Virus record (IMG/VR): IMGVR_UViG_3300031555_001519
Coordinates: 73,478 to 137,477 of that record
Origin: a virus
Taxonomy: Duplodnaviria; Caudoviricetes
Length of the DNA stretch: 64,000 nucleotides
Direction: 5' to 3' (one strand)
A model generated the notes under the pieces. The model was not told where the DNA came from and ran no database searches. It was given only the letters and a program-made list of their open reading frames with translations. Below are positions 33,728-59,416 of this stretch, piece by piece. The number at the start of each line of letters is the position of its first letter. Positions within the stretch are counted from its first letter, which is position 1. The translations under genes and the position numbers were made by a program.

Positions 33728-33814
33728 TCGACACCTCCTTATTATTTTATATCAAATGACCCACCGTGGTACGCATTATTAAGAGGCGTGGTGGGTTCTG
33801 TTTAAATTATTATT

Positions 33815-42307: not shown

Positions 42308-42380
42308 TGGCTCCTTCAGGTTTCGATCCTGACTCTACAGATTTTCAGTCTGCCGCTTTCACCAGATTAGCTTAAGAGCC
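42308..42380 (-). tRNA. tRNA-Phe(GAA)
   Basis: GCAGA-CTGAAAA-TCTGT anticodon arm; cloverleaf. Confidence 0.85.
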
Positions 42381-42397
42381 ATAAGATAGCTATAAAC

Positions 42398-42481
42398 TGC
42401 AGGTGGAGAGATTTGAACTCCCGAAGAGATAAACTCGCATGATTAAAAGTCATGTGCCATTAACCACTAGGCGACACCTGC
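42398..42481 (-). tRNA. tRNA-Lys(TTT) with long variable arm
   Basis: GCAGGTG/CACCTGC acceptor, CATGA-CTTTTAA-TCATG, 15-nt variable region. Confidence 0.85.
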
Positions 42482-42486
42482 ATAAA

Positions 42487-42558
42487 CGACTCTATTGGGG
42501 AACGATCCCAATTTTCTACCGTGACAGGGTAGCGTAATAACCTTTATACCATAGAGCC
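42487..42558 (-). tRNA. tRNA-Asp(GTC)
   Basis: CTACC-CTGTCAC-GGTAG anticodon arm; G discriminator. Confidence 0.85.
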
Positions 42559-42561
42559 AAA

Positions 42562-43324
42562 ATCAAGAGTGAACACTTAAGGCCGCTCTCTACAAAGCCG
42601 AAACTTTCAATTGTCAATAGCTCAAATCCGATTTAGTACACGTACCGCCTCGGTAAAAATCTCTAACGATTTTTGTTCTTTATTTTGTCAGCGTAAAGCA
42701 GTCAACTAGCTGAAACATCGGATTTCCGGATATCCAGTTTACGTTCTACCTCAATGGTTCTACGTTCTGCAAATGGTTTTGTCAACCAAATAGAAAAGTA
42801 GTATCTCTTCCAATTTTGAATCGTACACTAAGGCAGTACCTCTCCATTAAAATATACATCACTTATTCCATTCATGCGCATTCCCGGCATCTCGCCAGTA
42901 GGAGAGTGATGATAGGACTTACTTTGGTTTTCCAAATGCCAAGTTCCTTTGTTTTCAGCTAAAAGCCTATTCGGGAGAGCGAACCAACTCTCGGTTGGGA
43001 ACTCCAGTTACGAGCCGAATGACCATAACCTTCATCGTTCAATTGAAAAGTGTAAAGCACTAACTAACTCTTCTTCGGACTCCGGATGCCCAGTTGTTTA
43101 GAATAGAGAAATTGTTCCATTCATGCTTTCTCGTTAATGTCCTATAGACACTGTTTAATATAGCCAACATTCTGTAAGCTATTTCTTTGTTCAGGATTCT
43201 CACCCCGTTCAATTTGCAAGACTCAACCCTTGCTTGCAGAGTATCTCCCTGGAATTTCCCAGCTTCTCAGTACCGGGTGGTGGACGCACATGTACGCCAC
43301 TGAATATCTCGTTATTCAGAGATA
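42562..43324 (-). ncRNA. large structured RNA (ROOL/GOLLD-class candidate)
   Basis: ~760 nt with no ORF in the track, GC-richer than its surroundings, exactly filling the gap between tRNA-His and tRNA-Asp. 5' hairpin UAUCUC...GAGAUA followed by GUGGCG; many hairpins. Confidence 0.65.
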
Positions 43325-43325
43325 G

Positions 43326-43398
43326 GGTACCATGAAAGAATTGAACTTTCATTTACAGATTCACAATCTGTTGTCTTAACCATTAGACCAATGACACC
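43326..43398 (-). tRNA. tRNA-His(GTG)
   Basis: G-1:C73; ACAGA-TTGTGAA-TCTGT anticodon arm. Confidence 0.88.
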
Positions 43399-43403
43399 AT
43401 AAC

Positions 43404-43506
43404 TAGATAGCTATTTTGAGAACCGTCTCTTTTTTCGTCTGGAGTCGAACCAACGAAATGCAATATTTTGGAGCATCATATGTTTTAAAATTGCTGTAAC
43501 TATCTA
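43404..43506 (-). ncRNA. skipping-rope-like small RNA with T-loop hairpin
   Basis: Closing stem UAGAUAGUUA/UAGCUAUCUA, ACAGCAAU just inside the 5' strand, internal UUCGU-UGGUUCGACUCCA-G-ACGAA. Family name is from memory of the consensus. Confidence 0.5.
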
Positions 43507-43509
43507 TAG

Positions 43510-43582
43510 TCGCTACGCCTCGGAATTGAGCCGAGTTACCCTAGCTTATGAGGCTAGGTCAGATTCCTACCTGCCGCCAGCT
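43510..43582 (-). tRNA. tRNA-Met(CAT), degenerate acceptor stem
   Basis: CTAGC-CTCATAA-GCTAG; T arm CTCGG-CTCAATT-CCGAG; bulged acceptor stem and 1:72 mismatch. Confidence 0.65.
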
Positions 43583-43589
43583 ATAATAA

Positions 43590-43665
43590 TTGGGACGACA
43601 GGATTTGAACCTGCGAACCTCGTGATCCCAAATCACGCATTCTAACCAAACTGAACTACATCCCA
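43590..43665 (-). tRNA. tRNA-Pro(TGG)
   Basis: CGTGA-TTTGGGA-TCACG; GGTTCAAATCC T loop. Confidence 0.92.
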
Positions 43666-47832: not shown

Positions 47833-48978
47833 TTATTGTATCATCTTCAAACTTTTTAAACACTCTGCAAGAATCCTAACAAATTCATTATACTCATCAA
47901 TCGTAGTATCTTCTCCAATGCTAATCCTTATAGTGCTGAAAGCTTCTTCATCAGTTAACCCAATAGCTTTTAAAATTCTACTTGGGGTCTTTTCGCCGGT
48001 ACAACATGCACTTCCTGCCGAAACTTGCACACCCTTTATATCCAATAGGGTAATAAGAGCTTCTGCATTAATACCAGGAAAAGTGAGAGAGAGAGTATTG
48101 GGTAATCTTAATTTATTACTAGTGCTTCCATTTAATCGGACATTACAAATATCACCGCATTTATTGTAAATCGTATATAACAACCAAGGATCGAATTCAC
48201 CATCAGGCTGTTTCATTCTCTCAACCTGGTTTCCTAAAGCATATATCATAGGTACATTTTCTGTACCTGCTCTACGTCCATCAAATTGATGACCACCGTG
48301 GATGAGAGGGGAGAGTTTAATTCCGTCTCTAATATATAGGAACCCACAGTTCTTAAATCCACCGAATTTATGAAAACTTACGCTCATCATATCAATACCT
48401 ATTTCCTCTACATCAATAGGAACTTTCCCAAATGTTTGTACAGCATCCACATGTATGTACCCTTGAAAGCTATGTGTGATTCTTGCAATCTCTTTAATAT
48501 CATTCAAAGTGCCAATTTCATTATTACCCATCATGATTGATACAAGGCAGAAGTGTTTTTCACTAAGTAGAGATATTAATTTTCTAAATTTATCCACATC
48601 AACTTTACCGGTATTATCTATAGGGGTATATTCTATTCTGTACCATGATTTGTTCCCTAAATATTTACAAGTGTTATATACACTTGGATGTTCAATCTTA
48701 GTAGTAATAATACAATCAAACATATAGTTTGCATCTAAAAAACCTTTGATTGCCCAATTATTAGATTCACTACCGCCGGAAGTGAATACAATTTCACTAG
48801 GTTTCGCACCTATATAATTTGCTACTTGTTCCTGTGCATGAGTAATAATTCTTTTAGCTTCAATACCATCTTGACTAATATCAGAAGGATTCGCCCAATA
48901 CTTTTCTGCACAGTACATAAAATCCTGCAGTACCTCTTTTGAAGGTTTTGAGGTACTGGCTGCATTAAGATATATCAT
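47833..48978 (-). CDS. iscS: cysteine desulfurase (IscS/NifS)
   Basis: IYLNAAST, FTSGGSE, HVDAVQ, SFHKFGG (PLP Lys), SAGSAC (catalytic Cys). Confidence 0.93.
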   Translation of the reverse strand: MIYLNAASTSKPSKEVLQDFMYCAEKYWANPSDISQDGIEAKRIITHAQEQVANYIGAKPSEIVFTSGGSESNNWAIKGFLDANYMFDCIITTKIEHPSVYNTCKYLGNKSWYRIEYTPIDNTGKVDVDKFRKLISLLSEKHFCLVSIMMGNNEIGTLNDIKEIARITHSFQGYIHVDAVQTFGKVPIDVEEIGIDMMSVSFHKFGGFKNCGFLYIRDGIKLSPLIHGGHQFDGRRAGTENVPMIYALGNQVERMKQPDGEFDPWLLYTIYNKCGDICNVRLNGSTSNKLRLPNTLSLTFPGINAEALITLLDIKGVQVSAGSACCTGEKTPSRILKAIGLTDEEAFSTIRISIGEDTTIDEYNEFVRILAECLKSLKMIQ

Positions 48979-53626: not shown

Positions 53627-53911
53627 TTATTTTCCTTTCTGTATTTGATTTAAGCAATCGTTAAATCCTTGTGTGTAGTTATAGTGAAGTATATTTTCAA
53701 AGTTCGCTGCTCCATTCACACACGAATTAAGATTTTTATGTTCTGGTAGTGGTGTGAGAGGACACCAAGTTGGTTTAGTATTTGCTTCACTATAATCATC
53801 TGTAATTTTACCTGTTAGGCAACAAATATCTGATAGACCATAAGAATCATAATTTAAATGACATGTCGTGCAGCTTGTTGGTGTGTCTATTACTATTACT
53901 GATTTGCTCAT
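53627..53911 (-). CDS. small Cys-rich phage protein
   Basis: MSKSVIVIDTPTSCTTC...PTWCPL...GFNDCL. Confidence 0.75.
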   Translation of the reverse strand: MSKSVIVIDTPTSCTTCHLNYDSYGLSDICCLTGKITDDYSEANTKPTWCPLTPLPEHKNLNSCVNGAANFENILHYNYTQGFNDCLNQIQKGK

Positions 53912-53954
53912 TGTTTCTCCTTTCTGTTTAATTATGTTTAGTTCGCTTGAGATG

Positions 53955-54005
53955 ATAATATAGCAAAATGTGTAAAATGTCAAGTGCTTATTTAATTTTA
54001 TTTAG
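53955..54005 (-). promoter_or_regulatory. leftward sigmaA-type promoter preceded by the 15-bp motif
   Basis: Motif 54005-53991, TTGACA 53983-53978, 17 bp, TATTAT. Confidence 0.65.
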
Positions 54006-54080
54006 TTAATGGTGAGACTAGGGTGAATAAAAGAGGATGTATGGTTTTATAGTGCCCCCGGTATATAGGATATGAAGGTA

Positions 54081-54215
54081 TGTGGATAAGTTTTTGAGGG
54101 AGTTGAAGAAATGGTAAGGATAATAAGGGGAATTGGAGATTGTGGAATATGTGGATAAGTATGTGGATTGTTTAATTTTGTTTAGTAATGGATTGGGAGA
54201 ATTGAGTGTGGATAG
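54081..54215. promoter_or_regulatory. DnaA-box cluster
   Basis: Perfect TGTGGATAA (= TTATCCACA) at 54081 and 54150; near matches at 54141, 54162 and 54207; all in one orientation. Confidence 0.6.
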
Positions 54216-54426
54216 GGGAATTTACGATTGGTGGTGCGATTGATAGAAGGAATGGTTTTGATCGTGGTTTTTTAGTCAGTGTAGAAGTGTACCACGTCTA
54301 TGGAATCCAGCAAAATCAAGGCTTTCCGTAGGTTTTAAGTACCCCCACTAAGTGCAAAAAAACTATAATTTTTTAGCACTTAGAAACCCTTATAAAATAG
54401 GGCTTTGCGGGCTTTTTATGCATGGT

Positions 54427-54454
54427 TTGACTTTCATTTCTATCGTGTTATAGT
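54427..54454 (+). promoter_or_regulatory. rightward early sigmaA-type promoter
   Basis: TTGACT, 16 bp, extended TG-t-TATAGT. Confidence 0.65.
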
Positions 54455-54460
54455 TCAATC

Positions 54461-54956
54461 ATCAGCAAGAGCTGATAACCACTAAACAGTCAAGGCTGTA
54501 AGGTGTGTATTGCAAGTATAGTCAAGGCTATACCCATAGGCAACACGTCAACTATGTCTACAGTTTAAGGAAGGAGTGTATTTTAGGGGATAACTGTACC
54601 CTCATGGACTAATACCTGTACCATGTAAAAAACGGTATAACCGGGAAAGAATGCCGTTCTGCTCGGGGTAGGGGAAACTTTACCCAAAGTATAATACGGT
54701 CGTCAGTGGTGTGCTAGGTATCCCGTAACTCCCTAGCGAATGGACAACGCAAGAAGTCTGCCCAAATGGGCTATATTGTGCGACGCATCTATCTTGATGA
54801 TGGGTGGTCTATACCTTGAGGAAACAAGTCCTAGCTGGTAACTAGGAAACTGTCTACACGCAGTCTGCAAGTCGGTAGTATCTCAAGTAAATACGGTGTT
54901 TAGCAGGCACTAGGAAGGTTTGATAGTAGGTTTAAAGTCCTATTAGTCGCAAAAAA
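54461..54956 (+). ncRNA. candidate ~500-nt structured early leader/ncRNA
   Basis: No ORF in the track, GC-richer, many hairpins (two AGTCAAGGCT hairpins, CCTAG-CTGGTAA-CTAGG, GGTAGGG-GAAA-CTTTACC). Bounded by a promoter and a twister ribozyme. Confidence 0.55.
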
Positions 54957-55036
54957 GTCTGTAATGCTACCACTAGGCATAACAAGGATAAGTCCTAGAT
55001 GGCTGTTACAAGTCAGCAAAAAAGCAGAGTACAGAC
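54957..55036 (+). ncRNA. twister ribozyme, type P1
   Basis: P1 GUCUG/CAGAC; U^AAUGC; P3 CUAGG/CCUAG; P4 GCUG-UUACAAGU-CAGC; 3' GCAGAGUA; pseudoknots UAC/GUA and AC/GU. Predicted cut 54962/54963. Confidence 0.85.
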
Positions 55037-55090
55037 TAAATAAAATTAAACATGGCACGAATAGCCCAAAAATCGAGAAAGAGGTTTATT

Positions 55091-55747
55091 ATGGCAAAGA
55101 CTACAAACAAAGTTGATTTATTCCAGGCAGACAAGGCAATGAGCGAAAGAGTAGCAGAATTCATGCGTACAAAAGTTTGGGGTATCACTTTGAAGGCACG
55201 TTGTAAGGCTGAGATTGCGAAAGCAGAAGCCAGCATTGAAGGACTCCGGAATTTAGATGGTTCTGTATTAGCAGACAAAGGCAAGGACTCTATCATCGCA
55301 CTGGAAGCTCACATTACCGAGCTTAACACCAAGTTGGCAGAACAGCTTAAGGAAGAGGCTACCTTTGACCTTACTGAGAATGATAAGACTTTCTATAAGG
55401 CTTACAAGGATGCAACCACAGAGTCTGAGGTAGTAGAGGCTATCATTGCATGGTTTGCAGCTTATCATCTTGAAGTAACCAAGGACAGTGACATTATTGC
55501 ATTGATTGCAGGAGCTATCAGTGGTGCAAAGCGTGCATCAGCTAAGACCATCGTCAACAGTGGAGCTACTCAGTTTGTAGAGAGTAAGCGTACTAAGACC
55601 GACATCATTGGATTGTTCTACGGTGTACTTGCAGAGCGTATGCTGGAAGTTGGTACCTTAAAAGCTACTGAGATTCAGGAAGACGTGCGTGAGTTCTATG
55701 CACCTAAGAAGAAGGTTAAGAAAGAGTCTAAGAAAGAGTCTAAGTAA
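55091..55747 (+). CDS. first early protein, hypothetical (218 aa, basic C-terminal tail)
   Basis: GAGG RBS before MAKTTNK; ends KKKVKKESKKESK. Confidence 0.85.
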   Translation: MAKTTNKVDLFQADKAMSERVAEFMRTKVWGITLKARCKAEIAKAEASIEGLRNLDGSVLADKGKDSIIALEAHITELNTKLAEQLKEEATFDLTENDKTFYKAYKDATTESEVVEAIIAWFAAYHLEVTKDSDIIALIAGAISGAKRASAKTIVNSGATQFVESKRTKTDIIGLFYGVLAERMLEVGTLKATEIQEDVREFYAPKKKVKKESKKESK

Positions 55748-55751
55748 TCTA

Positions 55752-55835
55752 CATAATTGCAGAGTGTGAGGACAGGCCACCAGTCTGTCCTTTAATGCAC
55801 TACCCATAGGGTAACGGTCACAAGTCCGTGCATTA
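55752..55835 (+). ncRNA. twister ribozyme, circularly permuted type P5
   Basis: GCAGAGUG; P1 AGGACAG/CUGUCCU; U^AAUGC-AC; P3 UACCC/GGGUA; P4 CGG-UCACAAGU-CCG; pseudoknot CAC/GUG covaries with the first copy's UAC/GUA. Predicted cut 55793/55794. Confidence 0.8.
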
Positions 55836-55850
55836 GAGAGAGGTACAATT

Positions 55851-56033
55851 ATGCAATCAATAGCGACAGTAAAAAGAGATAAAGTATACCAAGTATTAGG
55901 ATATAGCAGTGGTAGAATTTTAGTGTTATATGAATCAAAATCTGAAGATGAGTGTGACGATTTCGCAGATGATTATGCTATTGCTAACAATATGTATTAT
56001 TTACGTATTGAAAGTGCGTACTATAAAAAATAG
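55851..56033 (+). CDS. small early hypothetical protein
   Basis: 60 aa; GAGGT RBS. Confidence 0.7.
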   Translation: MQSIATVKRDKVYQVLGYSSGRILVLYESKSEDECDDFADDYAIANNMYYLRIESAYYKK

Positions 56034-56222
56034 GAGGATAATTTATGAACCGTTCAATGGAAGCAAAACATTCAAAAGCCAAGAAAGAGGCAATTAAACA
56101 GATGACAGAAGATGCGAACCTTGCCAGTTGTGCGACCGGAGTAATAAAACAATGCAATTCTGTAATCTGGAATCTGCATTATAGGCCATATAGTACTAAG
56201 CGTAAATAATTAGGTATAGAAC

Positions 56223-56255
56223 AGGACTATAGAAAGGGAAATCTATAGTCTTTTT
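56223..56255 (+). terminator. intrinsic terminator
   Basis: GACTATAGA...TCTATAGTC plus T run. Confidence 0.65.
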
Positions 56256-59343: not shown

Positions 59344-59416
59344 GGCTCAGTAGTCAAGAGGTTTAAGACGCTACATTCTCAGTGTAGAGACTCTGGTTCA
59401 AATCCAGGCTGAGTCA
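59344..59416 (+). tRNA. tRNA-Glu(CTC)
   Basis: GGCTCAG/CTGAGTC acceptor, CTACA-TTCTCAG-TGTAG, GGTTCAAATCC. Confidence 0.9.

What the first reader, a model, noticed from the sequence alone, without database searches (positions are those of the whole stretch)
54461..54962. ~500-nt structured RNA made first from the early promoter and released by twister cleavage
Seen: starts with a hairpin just after the promoter, has no ORF in the track, and contains two AGUCAAGGCU hairpins and many stems. The pentamer AAGUC recurs about seven times between 54750 and 55020. Its 3' end would be set by ribozyme cleavage. Inference: a discrete early ncRNA such as a protein sponge, anti-defence RNA or antitermination element. 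I do not recognise the family.
Basis: partly seen in the sequence, partly recalled or inferred. Interest (0 to 1): 0.7.

Follow-up and report, generated by a model that had tools for sequence, protein, structure and literature searches.

The report
New phage RNA freed by ribozyme
The roughly 500-base gene-free stretch at the start of this gut phage's rightward genes is a conserved, intricately folded RNA of a family absent from the RNA catalogue. A self-cutting twister ribozyme directly after it should release it from the first mRNA. What the RNA does is still unknown.

Summary
Window 54461-54962 lies between a host-type promoter (54427-54454) and a twister-P1-like ribozyme (54958-55035). It has no conserved ORF, carries the two stated hairpins, and is enriched about tenfold in AAGUC. 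Rfam has no family for it.

Seven related uncultured-phage contigs carry the same RNA upstream of the same 218-aa orphan gene. Base-pair covariation is strong:
- 5' tandem hairpins: 8 of 12 pairs compensatory.
- 3' domain: 19 of 39 pairs compensatory, 96% of cells paired, 0 of 500 shuffles as good.
- A pseudoknot with compensatory changes in the relatives.
- G-U outnumbers A-C 39 to 3, so the fold belongs to the plus-strand RNA.

The twister scores below Rfam's threshold but is conserved in all eight loci, and its pseudoknot covaries. In more distant loci, a twister, a hammerhead or a tRNA-like minihelix sits at the same spot. This suggests that cutting the leader from the mRNA is what is selected.

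I read it as a new large structured phage ncRNA released by a cis ribozyme and probably acting in trans. Function, timing and actual cleavage are untested. The scan has noted ribozyme-released phage leaders before, on unrelated DNA.

The parts
54427..54454 (+). Sigma-70-like promoter with extended -10. The start site is inferred about 7 nt downstream, near 54461.
   Evidence: 10/12 match, TG present. The -10 block is conserved in relatives. Promoter activity was not tested.
54461..54962 (+). The leader ncRNA, about 502 nt, running from the inferred start site to the twister cleavage site (between U54962 and A54963).
   Evidence: No conserved ORF. No Rfam match at E up to 10. Conserved in 7 other loci. 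Single copy in the phage record.
54461..54476 (+). 5'-terminal 6-bp hairpin (H0). Present in the window, L004 and L002; replaced or expanded in other relatives.
54478..54508 (+). P1, a two-tier hairpin. Outer stem: 54478-54483 with 54502-54508. Inner stem: 54486-54490 with 54495-54499. The cap is a YNMG-type tetraloop closed by U-G. This is the first AGUCAAGGCU hairpin.
   Evidence: The inner stem covaries. The outer stem forms with a different sequence in each of 7 relatives (read).
54510..54516 (+). Invariant linker. Its first four bases (54510-54513) are predicted to pair with 54949-54952 and so close the whole RNA.
   Evidence: RNAalifold. The pairs are invariant except for one U-A to U-G change, so the helix is unproven.
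54516..54533 (+). P2, a 7-bp hairpin with a YNMG-type loop. This is the second AGUCAAGGCU hairpin.
   Evidence: 5 of 7 pairs show compensatory changes and 100% of cells are paired.
54534..54552 (+). Nearly invariant stretch after P2, apparently single-stranded. No partner was found.
54567..54578 (+). Purine-rich, Shine-Dalgarno-like motif with no start codon at the right distance. In the A2-type relatives the same position holds a 9-mer identical to the downstream gene's ribosome-binding site.
   Evidence: Position is conserved in all 8 loci. Predicted anti-SD affinity is not above shuffles.
54579..54778 (+). Central domain, expanded in the window, L004 and L002 relative to the other relatives. 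Supported hairpins: 54603-54607 with 54621-54625; 54653-54657 with 54696-54700; and, inside the latter, 54666-54673 with 54678-54685 capped by a GAAA loop.
   Evidence: Compensatory changes between window, L004 and L002 (11 compensatory, 8 one-sided, 3 broken among 143 predicted pairs).
54779..54955 (+). Conserved 3' domain. Helices: Ha (54782-54793 with 54799-54809), Hb (54815-54820 with 54882-54887), Hd (54830-54834 with 54842-54846), He (54895-54899 with 54907-54911) and the 3' hairpin (54922-54930 with 54939-54948).
   Evidence: Model R1, built only from 5 other loci, finds this stretch at 76.2 bits, E about 1e-19. Pair counts: 96.4% paired, 19 of 39 pairs compensatory, 0/500 shuffles. G-U 39 against A-C 3.
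54958..55035 (+). Twister ribozyme, type-P1-like variant. The predicted cut between 54962 and 54963 would leave a 2',3'-cyclic phosphate on the leader.
   Evidence: 42.5 bits, below the gathering score. Same element at the same place in 9 related loci. P4 and the pseudoknot covary.
55091..55747 (+). Context: the first rightward gene, a 218-aa all-helical orphan protein with its ribosome-binding site at 55077-55085.
55758..55829 (+). Context: a second twister (type P5) directly after the gene.
   Evidence: 40.6 bits, above the gathering score of 37.6. Conserved in relatives.

Best explanation
Window 54461-54962 encodes a previously uncatalogued, large (400-540 nt in the family), multi-domain structured non-coding RNA of a clade of uncultured gut phages.

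Proposed mechanism:
- Host RNA polymerase starts at the promoter at 54427-54454 and first transcribes this RNA as the 5' part of the rightward transcript.
- The twister ribozyme that follows (54958-55035) folds and cuts between U54962 and A54963.
- The folded RNA is thereby set free with a cyclic-phosphate 3' end, and the mRNA of the 218-aa gene starts with a 5'-hydroxyl.
- The freed RNA then acts on its own, in trans, most likely by binding a protein or the small ribosomal subunit rather than by regulating the gene behind it.

Shown here: conservation, the fold (covariation), strand specificity, absence of coding, and the conserved adjacent ribozyme.

Inferred: the start site, early timing, actual cleavage, and the trans-acting role.

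My odds: structured functional RNA about 0.9; released by the ribozyme about 0.75; trans-acting RNP or decoy function about 0.4.
For: Conservation:
- The leader is 95% identical in L004, although the protein behind it is only 73% identical. It is 77% identical in L002.
- Eight loci align over their whole length.

Covariation:
- RNAalifold predicts 48 pairs, 22 of them with compensatory changes.
- 5' hairpins: 8 of 12 pairs compensatory, 0/500 shuffles reach the covariation score.
- 3' domain, 5 sequences: 97.7% paired, 16 of 44 pairs compensatory. This includes a pseudoknot with two compensatory pairs.
- 3' domain, 8 sequences: 96.4% paired, 19 of 39 pairs compensatory. Slid controls give 27-46% paired.
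- A covariance model trained without the window finds 54779-54955 at E about 1e-19.
- Within the three closest sequences: 11 compensatory changes, 8 one-sided, 3 broken.

Other evidence:
- Strand: G-U outnumbers A-C 39 to 3 and 18 to 2.
- No conserved ORF. G+C is raised.
- Ribozyme: twister-P1 matches at the same place in 9 relatives, and its P4 and pseudoknot covary.
- In distant loci of the same gene, a Hammerhead_3 (L013, 48.7 bits against a gathering score of 48.5) or a tRNA-like acceptor/T-arm minihelix (L005, L015, L016, L020) sits there instead.
- In L010 and L024, a 41-aa gene is inserted between the RNA's last hairpin and the twister. This shows the RNA module is a self-contained unit.
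Against: - No transcript data: no RNA run was available.
- The twister is below Rfam's gathering score, and its self-cleavage is untested.
- Only 7 distinct sequences carry the RNA, so covariation statistics are limited and relatedness inflates shuffle tests.
- Pseudoknots are supported in the relatives but not established for the window's own variant.
- In L010 and L024 the 5' cleavage fragment would also carry a small gene, so in those phages the RNA doubles as a 5' UTR.
- No binding partner, target or phenotype is known.
- The neighbouring protein and the RNA do not co-vary in divergence (L005 protein 69% identical but leader not alignable; L012 protein 52% identical but leader homologous). 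This argues against a dedicated RNA-protein pair.
Confidence: 0.6

Rival explanations
1. It is a cis-acting 5' leader that works before it is cut off or without being cut. Examples would be a processive antiterminator of the HK022 put kind (two hairpins just after an early promoter that modify RNA polymerase), or a sensor that controls transcription or ribozyme cleavage.
For: - Two conserved, covarying hairpins lie directly after the promoter. Similar tandem hairpins follow the promoter in most distant loci.
- A terminator-like site lies downstream at 56223-56252.
- In L010 and L024 a terminator-like hairpin sits between the RNA and the twister.
Against: - A self-cleaving ribozyme, or another processing element, always separates the RNA from the genes behind it. 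From my knowledge of put RNA, it acts only while tethered to the polymerase.
- The conserved part is 400-540 nt with several domains, far more than a put-like element needs.
- No terminator lies between the RNA and the gene in the window.
Confidence: 0.15
2. The ribozyme is what matters. It gives the first mRNA a defined 5'-hydroxyl end. The long leader is a structured spacer or nuclease buffer without a specific function of its own.
For: - The gene is bracketed by two ribozymes in most loci.
- Phage genes flanked by ribozymes are documented and were read as processing of transcripts to gene length (Perreault et al. 2011, PMC3088659).
- Distant loci have non-alignable leaders.
Against: - The leader is better conserved than the protein in L004.
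- It holds nearly invariant unpaired stretches, covarying helices and a pseudoknot.
- A spacer would not keep these features.
Confidence: 0.17
3. The conserved hairpins act at the DNA level, as part of the replication origin, the packaging site or operators next to the DnaA boxes, and not as RNA.
For: - DnaA-box-like repeats and a strong G skew lie immediately upstream at about 54070-54220.
- A near copy of the hairpin-loop motif occurs in the DNA upstream of the promoter at 54314-54323, and relatives keep it.
Against: - G-U pairs outnumber A-C 39 to 3 and 18 to 2, so the fold exists on the plus strand only.
- The element sits between a promoter and a ribozyme on the same strand.
- Pseudoknots and long-range helices are not expected of duplex DNA sites.
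Confidence: 0.04
4. The stretch encodes one or more small proteins that escaped ORF calling.
For: - ORFs of 21-35 aa exist in the window, and ORFs of 20-44 aa in relatives.
- A Shine-Dalgarno-like motif is conserved.
Against: - No ORF is kept in position or frame between the window and L002.
- Where an ORF overlaps a helix, substitutions are compensatory for pairing and non-synonymous for the peptide (read).
- No start codon lies at the right distance from the SD-like motif.
Confidence: 0.03

Closest known systems
Ribozyme-flanked genes and ribozyme-bearing early leaders of phages and prophages (hammerheads; Perreault et al. 2011, PMC3088659)
   Same: Self-cleaving ribozymes sit in phage transcripts and flank single genes. 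In haloviruses HF1 and HF2, a hammerhead lies 13 nt before the first early ORF. The authors inferred processing of long phage transcripts into gene-length pieces.
   Different: Here the piece in front of the ribozyme is itself a conserved, covarying, about 500-nt RNA. The ribozyme is a twister. The paper describes no such upstream RNA.
GOLLD and ROOL, large ornate RNAs of phages and prophages (Rfam; Kretsch et al. 2025, PMC12286853)
   Same: Large, multi-domain, pseudoknotted and phage-encoded. No ORF and no known function or protein partner.
   Different: - No covariance-model match.
- Not in a tRNA island.
- Smaller than GOLLD.
- Sits at the head of an mRNA and is bounded by a ribozyme.
- Oligomer formation is unknown.
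HK022 put antiterminator RNAs (own knowledge)
   Same: Two stem-loops encoded directly downstream of early promoters.
   Different: Put RNA is about 70 nt and works only while tethered to the transcribing polymerase. Here a much larger RNA is followed by a self-cleaving element.
5' stabiliser elements of Bacillus mRNAs and of the phage SP82 early leader: Shine-Dalgarno-like polypurine sequences that bind the 30S subunit without translation (own knowledge; Hue et al. 1995, Agaisse and Lereclus 1996)
   Same: A conserved SD-like purine motif without a start codon lies in a processed early phage leader.
   Different: The motif here lies about 106 nt inside a structured RNA. Its predicted anti-SD affinity is not above shuffles. 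Any role is untested.
MALAT1-mascRNA type 3'-end formation, in which a tRNA-like structure is cut by RNase P (own knowledge)
   Same: In L005, L015, L016 and L020, an acceptor/T-arm minihelix sits where the window has its twister. RNase P could therefore make the leader's 3' end.
   Different: This is seen only in distant loci whose leaders are not alignable with the window's RNA. Neither ARAGORN nor Rfam calls the element.

Membership tests
Twister ribozyme, type P1 (Rfam RF03160), for the element that sets the 3' end | Score at or above Rfam's gathering threshold (67.2 bits) | tested here: not met
   42.5 bits in the window; 44-57 bits in 9 relatives.
Twister ribozyme, type P1 (Rfam RF03160), for the element that sets the 3' end | Stems P2 and P4 and the loop pseudoknot are kept, with compensatory changes | tested here: met
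   97.3% of cells paired. The pseudoknot has three covarying forms, and P4 has 3 of 4 pairs compensatory.
Twister ribozyme, type P1 (Rfam RF03160), for the element that sets the 3' end | Self-cleavage at the conserved U-A step, leaving a 2',3'-cyclic phosphate and a 5'-OH | not testable with these tools
   Needs in vitro transcription or end-specific RNA-seq.
GOLLD / ROOL / OLE / HEARO / raiA large RNAs (Rfam) | Match to the family covariance model | tested here: not met
   no match at E up to 10 in 53900-56100 apart from the twisters and noise; none at gathering score.
GOLLD / ROOL / OLE / HEARO / raiA large RNAs (Rfam) | For GOLLD and ROOL: location in or beside a phage tRNA island | tested here: not met
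   The nearest tRNA is at 59344-59416, 4.4 kb away. The tRNA cluster is at 42308-43665.
HK022 put antiterminator RNA | Two adjacent stem-loops directly downstream of an early promoter | tested here: met
   P1 and P2 at 54478-54533, with covariation.
HK022 put antiterminator RNA | RNA stays covalently linked to the elongating polymerase | tested here: inconclusive
   A conserved self-cleaving element follows in every locus. Cleavage kinetics relative to transcription are unknown.
phi29 pRNA, 6S RNA, tmRNA, RNase P RNA, riboswitch classes (Rfam) | Match to the family covariance model | tested here: not met
New family proposed here (A-type leader RNA) | Match to both models built here: R2 (5' module) and R1 (3' domain) | tested here: met
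   Window: R2 98.2 bits (in the training set) and R1 76.2 bits (not in the training set). Eight loci match both. L005, L007, L011, L013, L014, L016 and L020 match neither; L015's only match (R2, 14.4 bits, E 0.49) is not significant.

The most novel reading that the evidence does not exclude
This would be a new class of large, pseudoknotted phage RNA. Its release from the first early transcript would be the biological job of the adjacent self-cleaving ribozyme, with a hammerhead or an RNase P substrate doing that job in relatives. Once free, the RNA would act in trans as a host-takeover particle, for example by capturing 30S subunits through its ribosome-binding-site mimic, or by sequestering a host defence or RNA-decay protein.
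Probability: 0.35. Interest if true: 0.8.

Novelty: new variant of a known kind. Interest (0 to 1): 0.6.

Why it matters
Most natural twister and hammerhead ribozymes have no known biological purpose. Here a conserved, well-folded RNA sits directly in front of one. The cutting element is exchangeable while the architecture is kept. This gives a concrete, testable role: freeing a non-coding RNA from an mRNA.

It also adds a candidate to the short list of large structured phage RNAs (GOLLD, ROOL) whose functions are still open. It comes with a defined promoter, defined ends and a small set of natural variants for structure work.

The scan has met ribozyme-released leaders in unrelated phages before, so this may be a general phage strategy.

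Tried and rejected
- **RNA evidence:** The look-up of sequencing runs listed no RNA holder, so expression could not be examined.
- **Wider search for the RNA:**
  - Two conserved motifs scanned in viral contigs gave 0 matches.
  - One motif scanned in genome contigs gave 0 matches.
  - blastn and tblastn against GenBank phages gave no match.
  - The protein-alignment scans of viral contigs and metagenome contigs gave only 7 distant loci.
- **Homology of the distant leaders** (L005, L007, L011, L013-L016) to the window's RNA. Models R1 and R2, nhmmer and blastn gave nothing significant. By eye they share tandem hairpins and the purine motif only, so I do not count them as members.
- **Partner protein idea:**
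  - The 218-aa protein folds confidently (pLDDT 85.5) but matches nothing in PDB or BFVD.
  - It has no Pfam or PHROG family.
  - I did not run complex prediction, because it cannot take RNA.
- **Loop-loop or loop-strand pairings considered and dropped for lack of covariation:**
  - the hairpin loops with the complementary hexamer near 54815;
  - the conserved strand after P2 with the twister loop;
  - the conserved strand after P2 with the purine motif (broken in L012).
- **Anti-SD affinity of the purine motif:** not above shuffles.
- **tRNA-like elements:** ARAGORN and Rfam call none. They rest on reading and folding only.
- **Structure-aware MAFFT (Q-INS-i):** not installed.
- **My first constrained fold** used wrong coordinates and was discarded.

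Full report
**Setting.** The window is the last 64 kb of a 137,477-base IMG/VR virus record. Leftward genes end at 53983, and the first rightward gene starts at 55091 (an alternative start is at 55052). This leaves about 1.1 kb without genes.

From left to right the gap holds:
- G-rich DnaA-box-like repeats (about 54070-54220; G skew 0.83);
- a palindrome;
- a sigma-70-like promoter with extended -10 at 54427-54454;
- the stretch in question, 54461-54962;
- a twister-P1-like match at 54958-55035.

The gene that follows encodes a 218-aa orphan protein. Directly after it comes a second twister (type P5, 55758-55829), which scores above Rfam's gathering threshold. No cultured phage is close.

**Checking the observation.** Every item is there.
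- The RNA would begin with a 6-bp hairpin (54461-54476).
- The two exact AGUCAAGGCU copies are at 54488 and 54520.
- AAGUC occurs seven times on the plus strand between 54754 and 55014, against about 0.27 expected from the window rate. Two of these lie in the twister.
- The relatives' leaders are likewise enriched, with 2-5 copies against about 0.5 expected.
- Plus-strand ORFs are at most 35 aa and are not kept in L002.
- The stretch folds better than shuffles (z = -3.2) and is richer in G+C than its flanks.
- Rfam holds nothing for it. A permissive scan of 53900-56100 returns only the two twisters and noise.

**Relatives.** The 218-aa protein has 83 homologues in metagenome assemblies. I fetched loci for twelve of them and seven more distant loci. 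All of the loci that reach far enough upstream have 1.1-1.9 kb without genes upstream.

Seven contigs carry a leader alignable with the window's from promoter to twister: L002 (and its twin L003), L004, L009, L010, L012, L022 and L024.
- L004's leader is 95% identical, although its protein is only 73% identical.
- The reverse also occurs: L005's protein is 69% identical, but its leader is not alignable.

So the RNA and the gene are shuffled as separate modules.

**Is it a folded RNA?** Yes, by covariation.
- RNAalifold on the eight sequences predicts 48 pairs, 22 of them with compensatory changes.
- The first hairpin sits on a second, outer stem that has a different sequence in every relative.
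- For the 3' domain I wrote a structure from five relatives. It is 97.7% paired, with 16 of 44 pairs compensatory. This includes a five-pair pseudoknot between a hairpin loop and an internal loop, with two compensatory pairs.
- A covariance model built from those five sequences (R1) then found the window, L004 and L002, which it had never seen, at 76-84 bits and E about 1e-20.
- On the resulting eight-sequence alignment, 96.4% of cells pair and 19 of 39 pairs are compensatory. That alignment is fitted to the model, so it leans towards the structure. The slid controls (27-46% paired) and the independent detection answer that concern in part.
- Within the three closest sequences alone, 11 predicted pairs show double changes, 8 show one-sided changes and 3 are broken. 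This supports several hairpins of the window's expanded central domain.
- A second pseudoknot in the central domain of the relatives has two compensatory pairs in L010 (read).

For the window's own variant the pseudoknots are not established.

**RNA, not DNA, and not coding.**
- G-U pairs outnumber A-C 39 to 3 in the 3' domain and 18 to 2 in the 5' hairpins. The fold would therefore be 12-17 points worse on the other strand.
- No ORF is conserved.
- Where an ORF of the relatives overlaps a helix, the substitutions keep pairing and change the peptide.

**The 3' end.**
- The twister match is below Rfam's threshold in every locus (42-57 bits against 67.2). It nevertheless lies at the same place in nine relatives.
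- Its P4 stem and its loop pseudoknot occur in three covarying forms.
- The last seven bases of the leader form the 5' strand of the ribozyme's P1 stem.
- In L010 and L024, a 41-aa gene with a terminator-like hairpin is inserted between the leader's last hairpin and the twister. This marks the end of the RNA module proper at about 54955.
- In more distant loci, whose leaders share only tandem hairpins of the same loop type and a purine motif, the element before the gene varies:
  - a twister in L007 and L011;
  - a type III hammerhead in L013, at 48.7 bits, just above its threshold;
  - an acceptor/T-arm minihelix with a canonical T-loop in L005, L015, L016 and L020. This would be a substrate for RNase P, though neither ARAGORN nor Rfam calls it.
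  - Nothing was found in L014.

The recurrent feature is thus a cut between a long leader and the first mRNA.

**What it may do.**
- A put-like antiterminator must stay attached to the polymerase (own knowledge), which the ribozyme contradicts.
- A plain spacer would not keep invariant unpaired blocks, pseudoknots, and 95% identity beside a 73%-identical protein.
- I therefore favour a free, trans-acting RNA.
- One lead is a conserved purine block (54567-54578). In the relatives it is the same 9-mer as the gene's own ribosome-binding site, preceded by a small hairpin as at the real start, but no start codon follows it. It could bind 30S subunits, as the 5' stabilisers of Bacillus mRNAs and the SP82 early leader do (own knowledge). 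Its predicted affinity is not above chance.
- The AAGUC repeats remain unexplained.
- The neighbouring protein gave no clue.

**Comparison with what is known.**
- Ribozymes that flank phage genes, and a hammerhead just before the first early ORF of haloviruses, are in print (PMC3088659).
- Large ornate phage RNAs of unknown function are known as GOLLD and ROOL (PMC12286853).
- This RNA matches neither of those families nor any other Rfam model. It is not in a tRNA island, and it is defined by its place at the head of a transcript and by the ribozyme behind it.
- Earlier notes of this scan describe ribozyme-released leaders in unrelated phages. I did not test those.

**Verdict.** It is a new RNA family within a known theme. 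Interest 0.6.

Noticed in passing
L013:2366-2420; L005:2340-2405; L015:2373-2430; L016:2142-2216; L020:2142-2216: At the place where the window has its twister, one relative has a type III hammerhead. Four others have a tRNA-like acceptor/T-arm minihelix with a canonical T-loop that no tRNA finder calls.
   Followed up: partly
L010 about 2215-2390; L024:2233-2358: A 41-aa gene plus a terminator-like hairpin is inserted between the leader RNA and the twister. A similar small gene follows the tRNA-like element in L016 and L020.
   Followed up: no
window 54314-54323 and the same place in L002, L009, L010, L022: A near copy of the hairpin-loop motif, within a conserved block of about 15 nt, lies in the DNA upstream of the promoter (twice in L022). 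Its role is unexplained. It could be an operator or part of a longer transcript.
   Followed up: no
window 54070-54400: DnaA-box-like repeats with a very strong G skew (0.83). Next to them lie a C-run motif and a palindrome around an A/T block. These features are kept in nearly all relatives, including distant ones. Likely an origin or a genome end.
   Followed up: partly
L004 versus window 53989-55085: The intergenic region is 95% identical while the gene behind it is 73% identical at the protein level. The break lies just after the twister, which suggests modular recombination at the ribozyme.
   Followed up: partly
L007:4067-4231: A near-threshold match to the molybdenum-cofactor riboswitch (35.7 bits against a gathering score of 36, E 7.5e-5) among small early genes of a related phage.
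   Followed up: no
window 33759-33795 (-): An abiF RNA match above the gathering score (46.8 against 37).
   Followed up: no
window 48898-48971 (-): A weak third twister-like match (22 bits, E 0.002) at the start of the aminotransferase-like gene.
   Followed up: no
L007:2495-2564: The gene call for the homologue in L007 and L008 (259 aa) starts inside the twister. The true start is probably about 70 nt further on.
   Followed up: no
window 55077-55085 and the leaders of L009, L012, L022, L024: The 9-mer that serves as the gene's ribosome-binding site recurs inside the leader RNA of the relatives, after a small hairpin but without a start codon. This looks like a ribosome-binding-site mimic.
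   Followed up: partly
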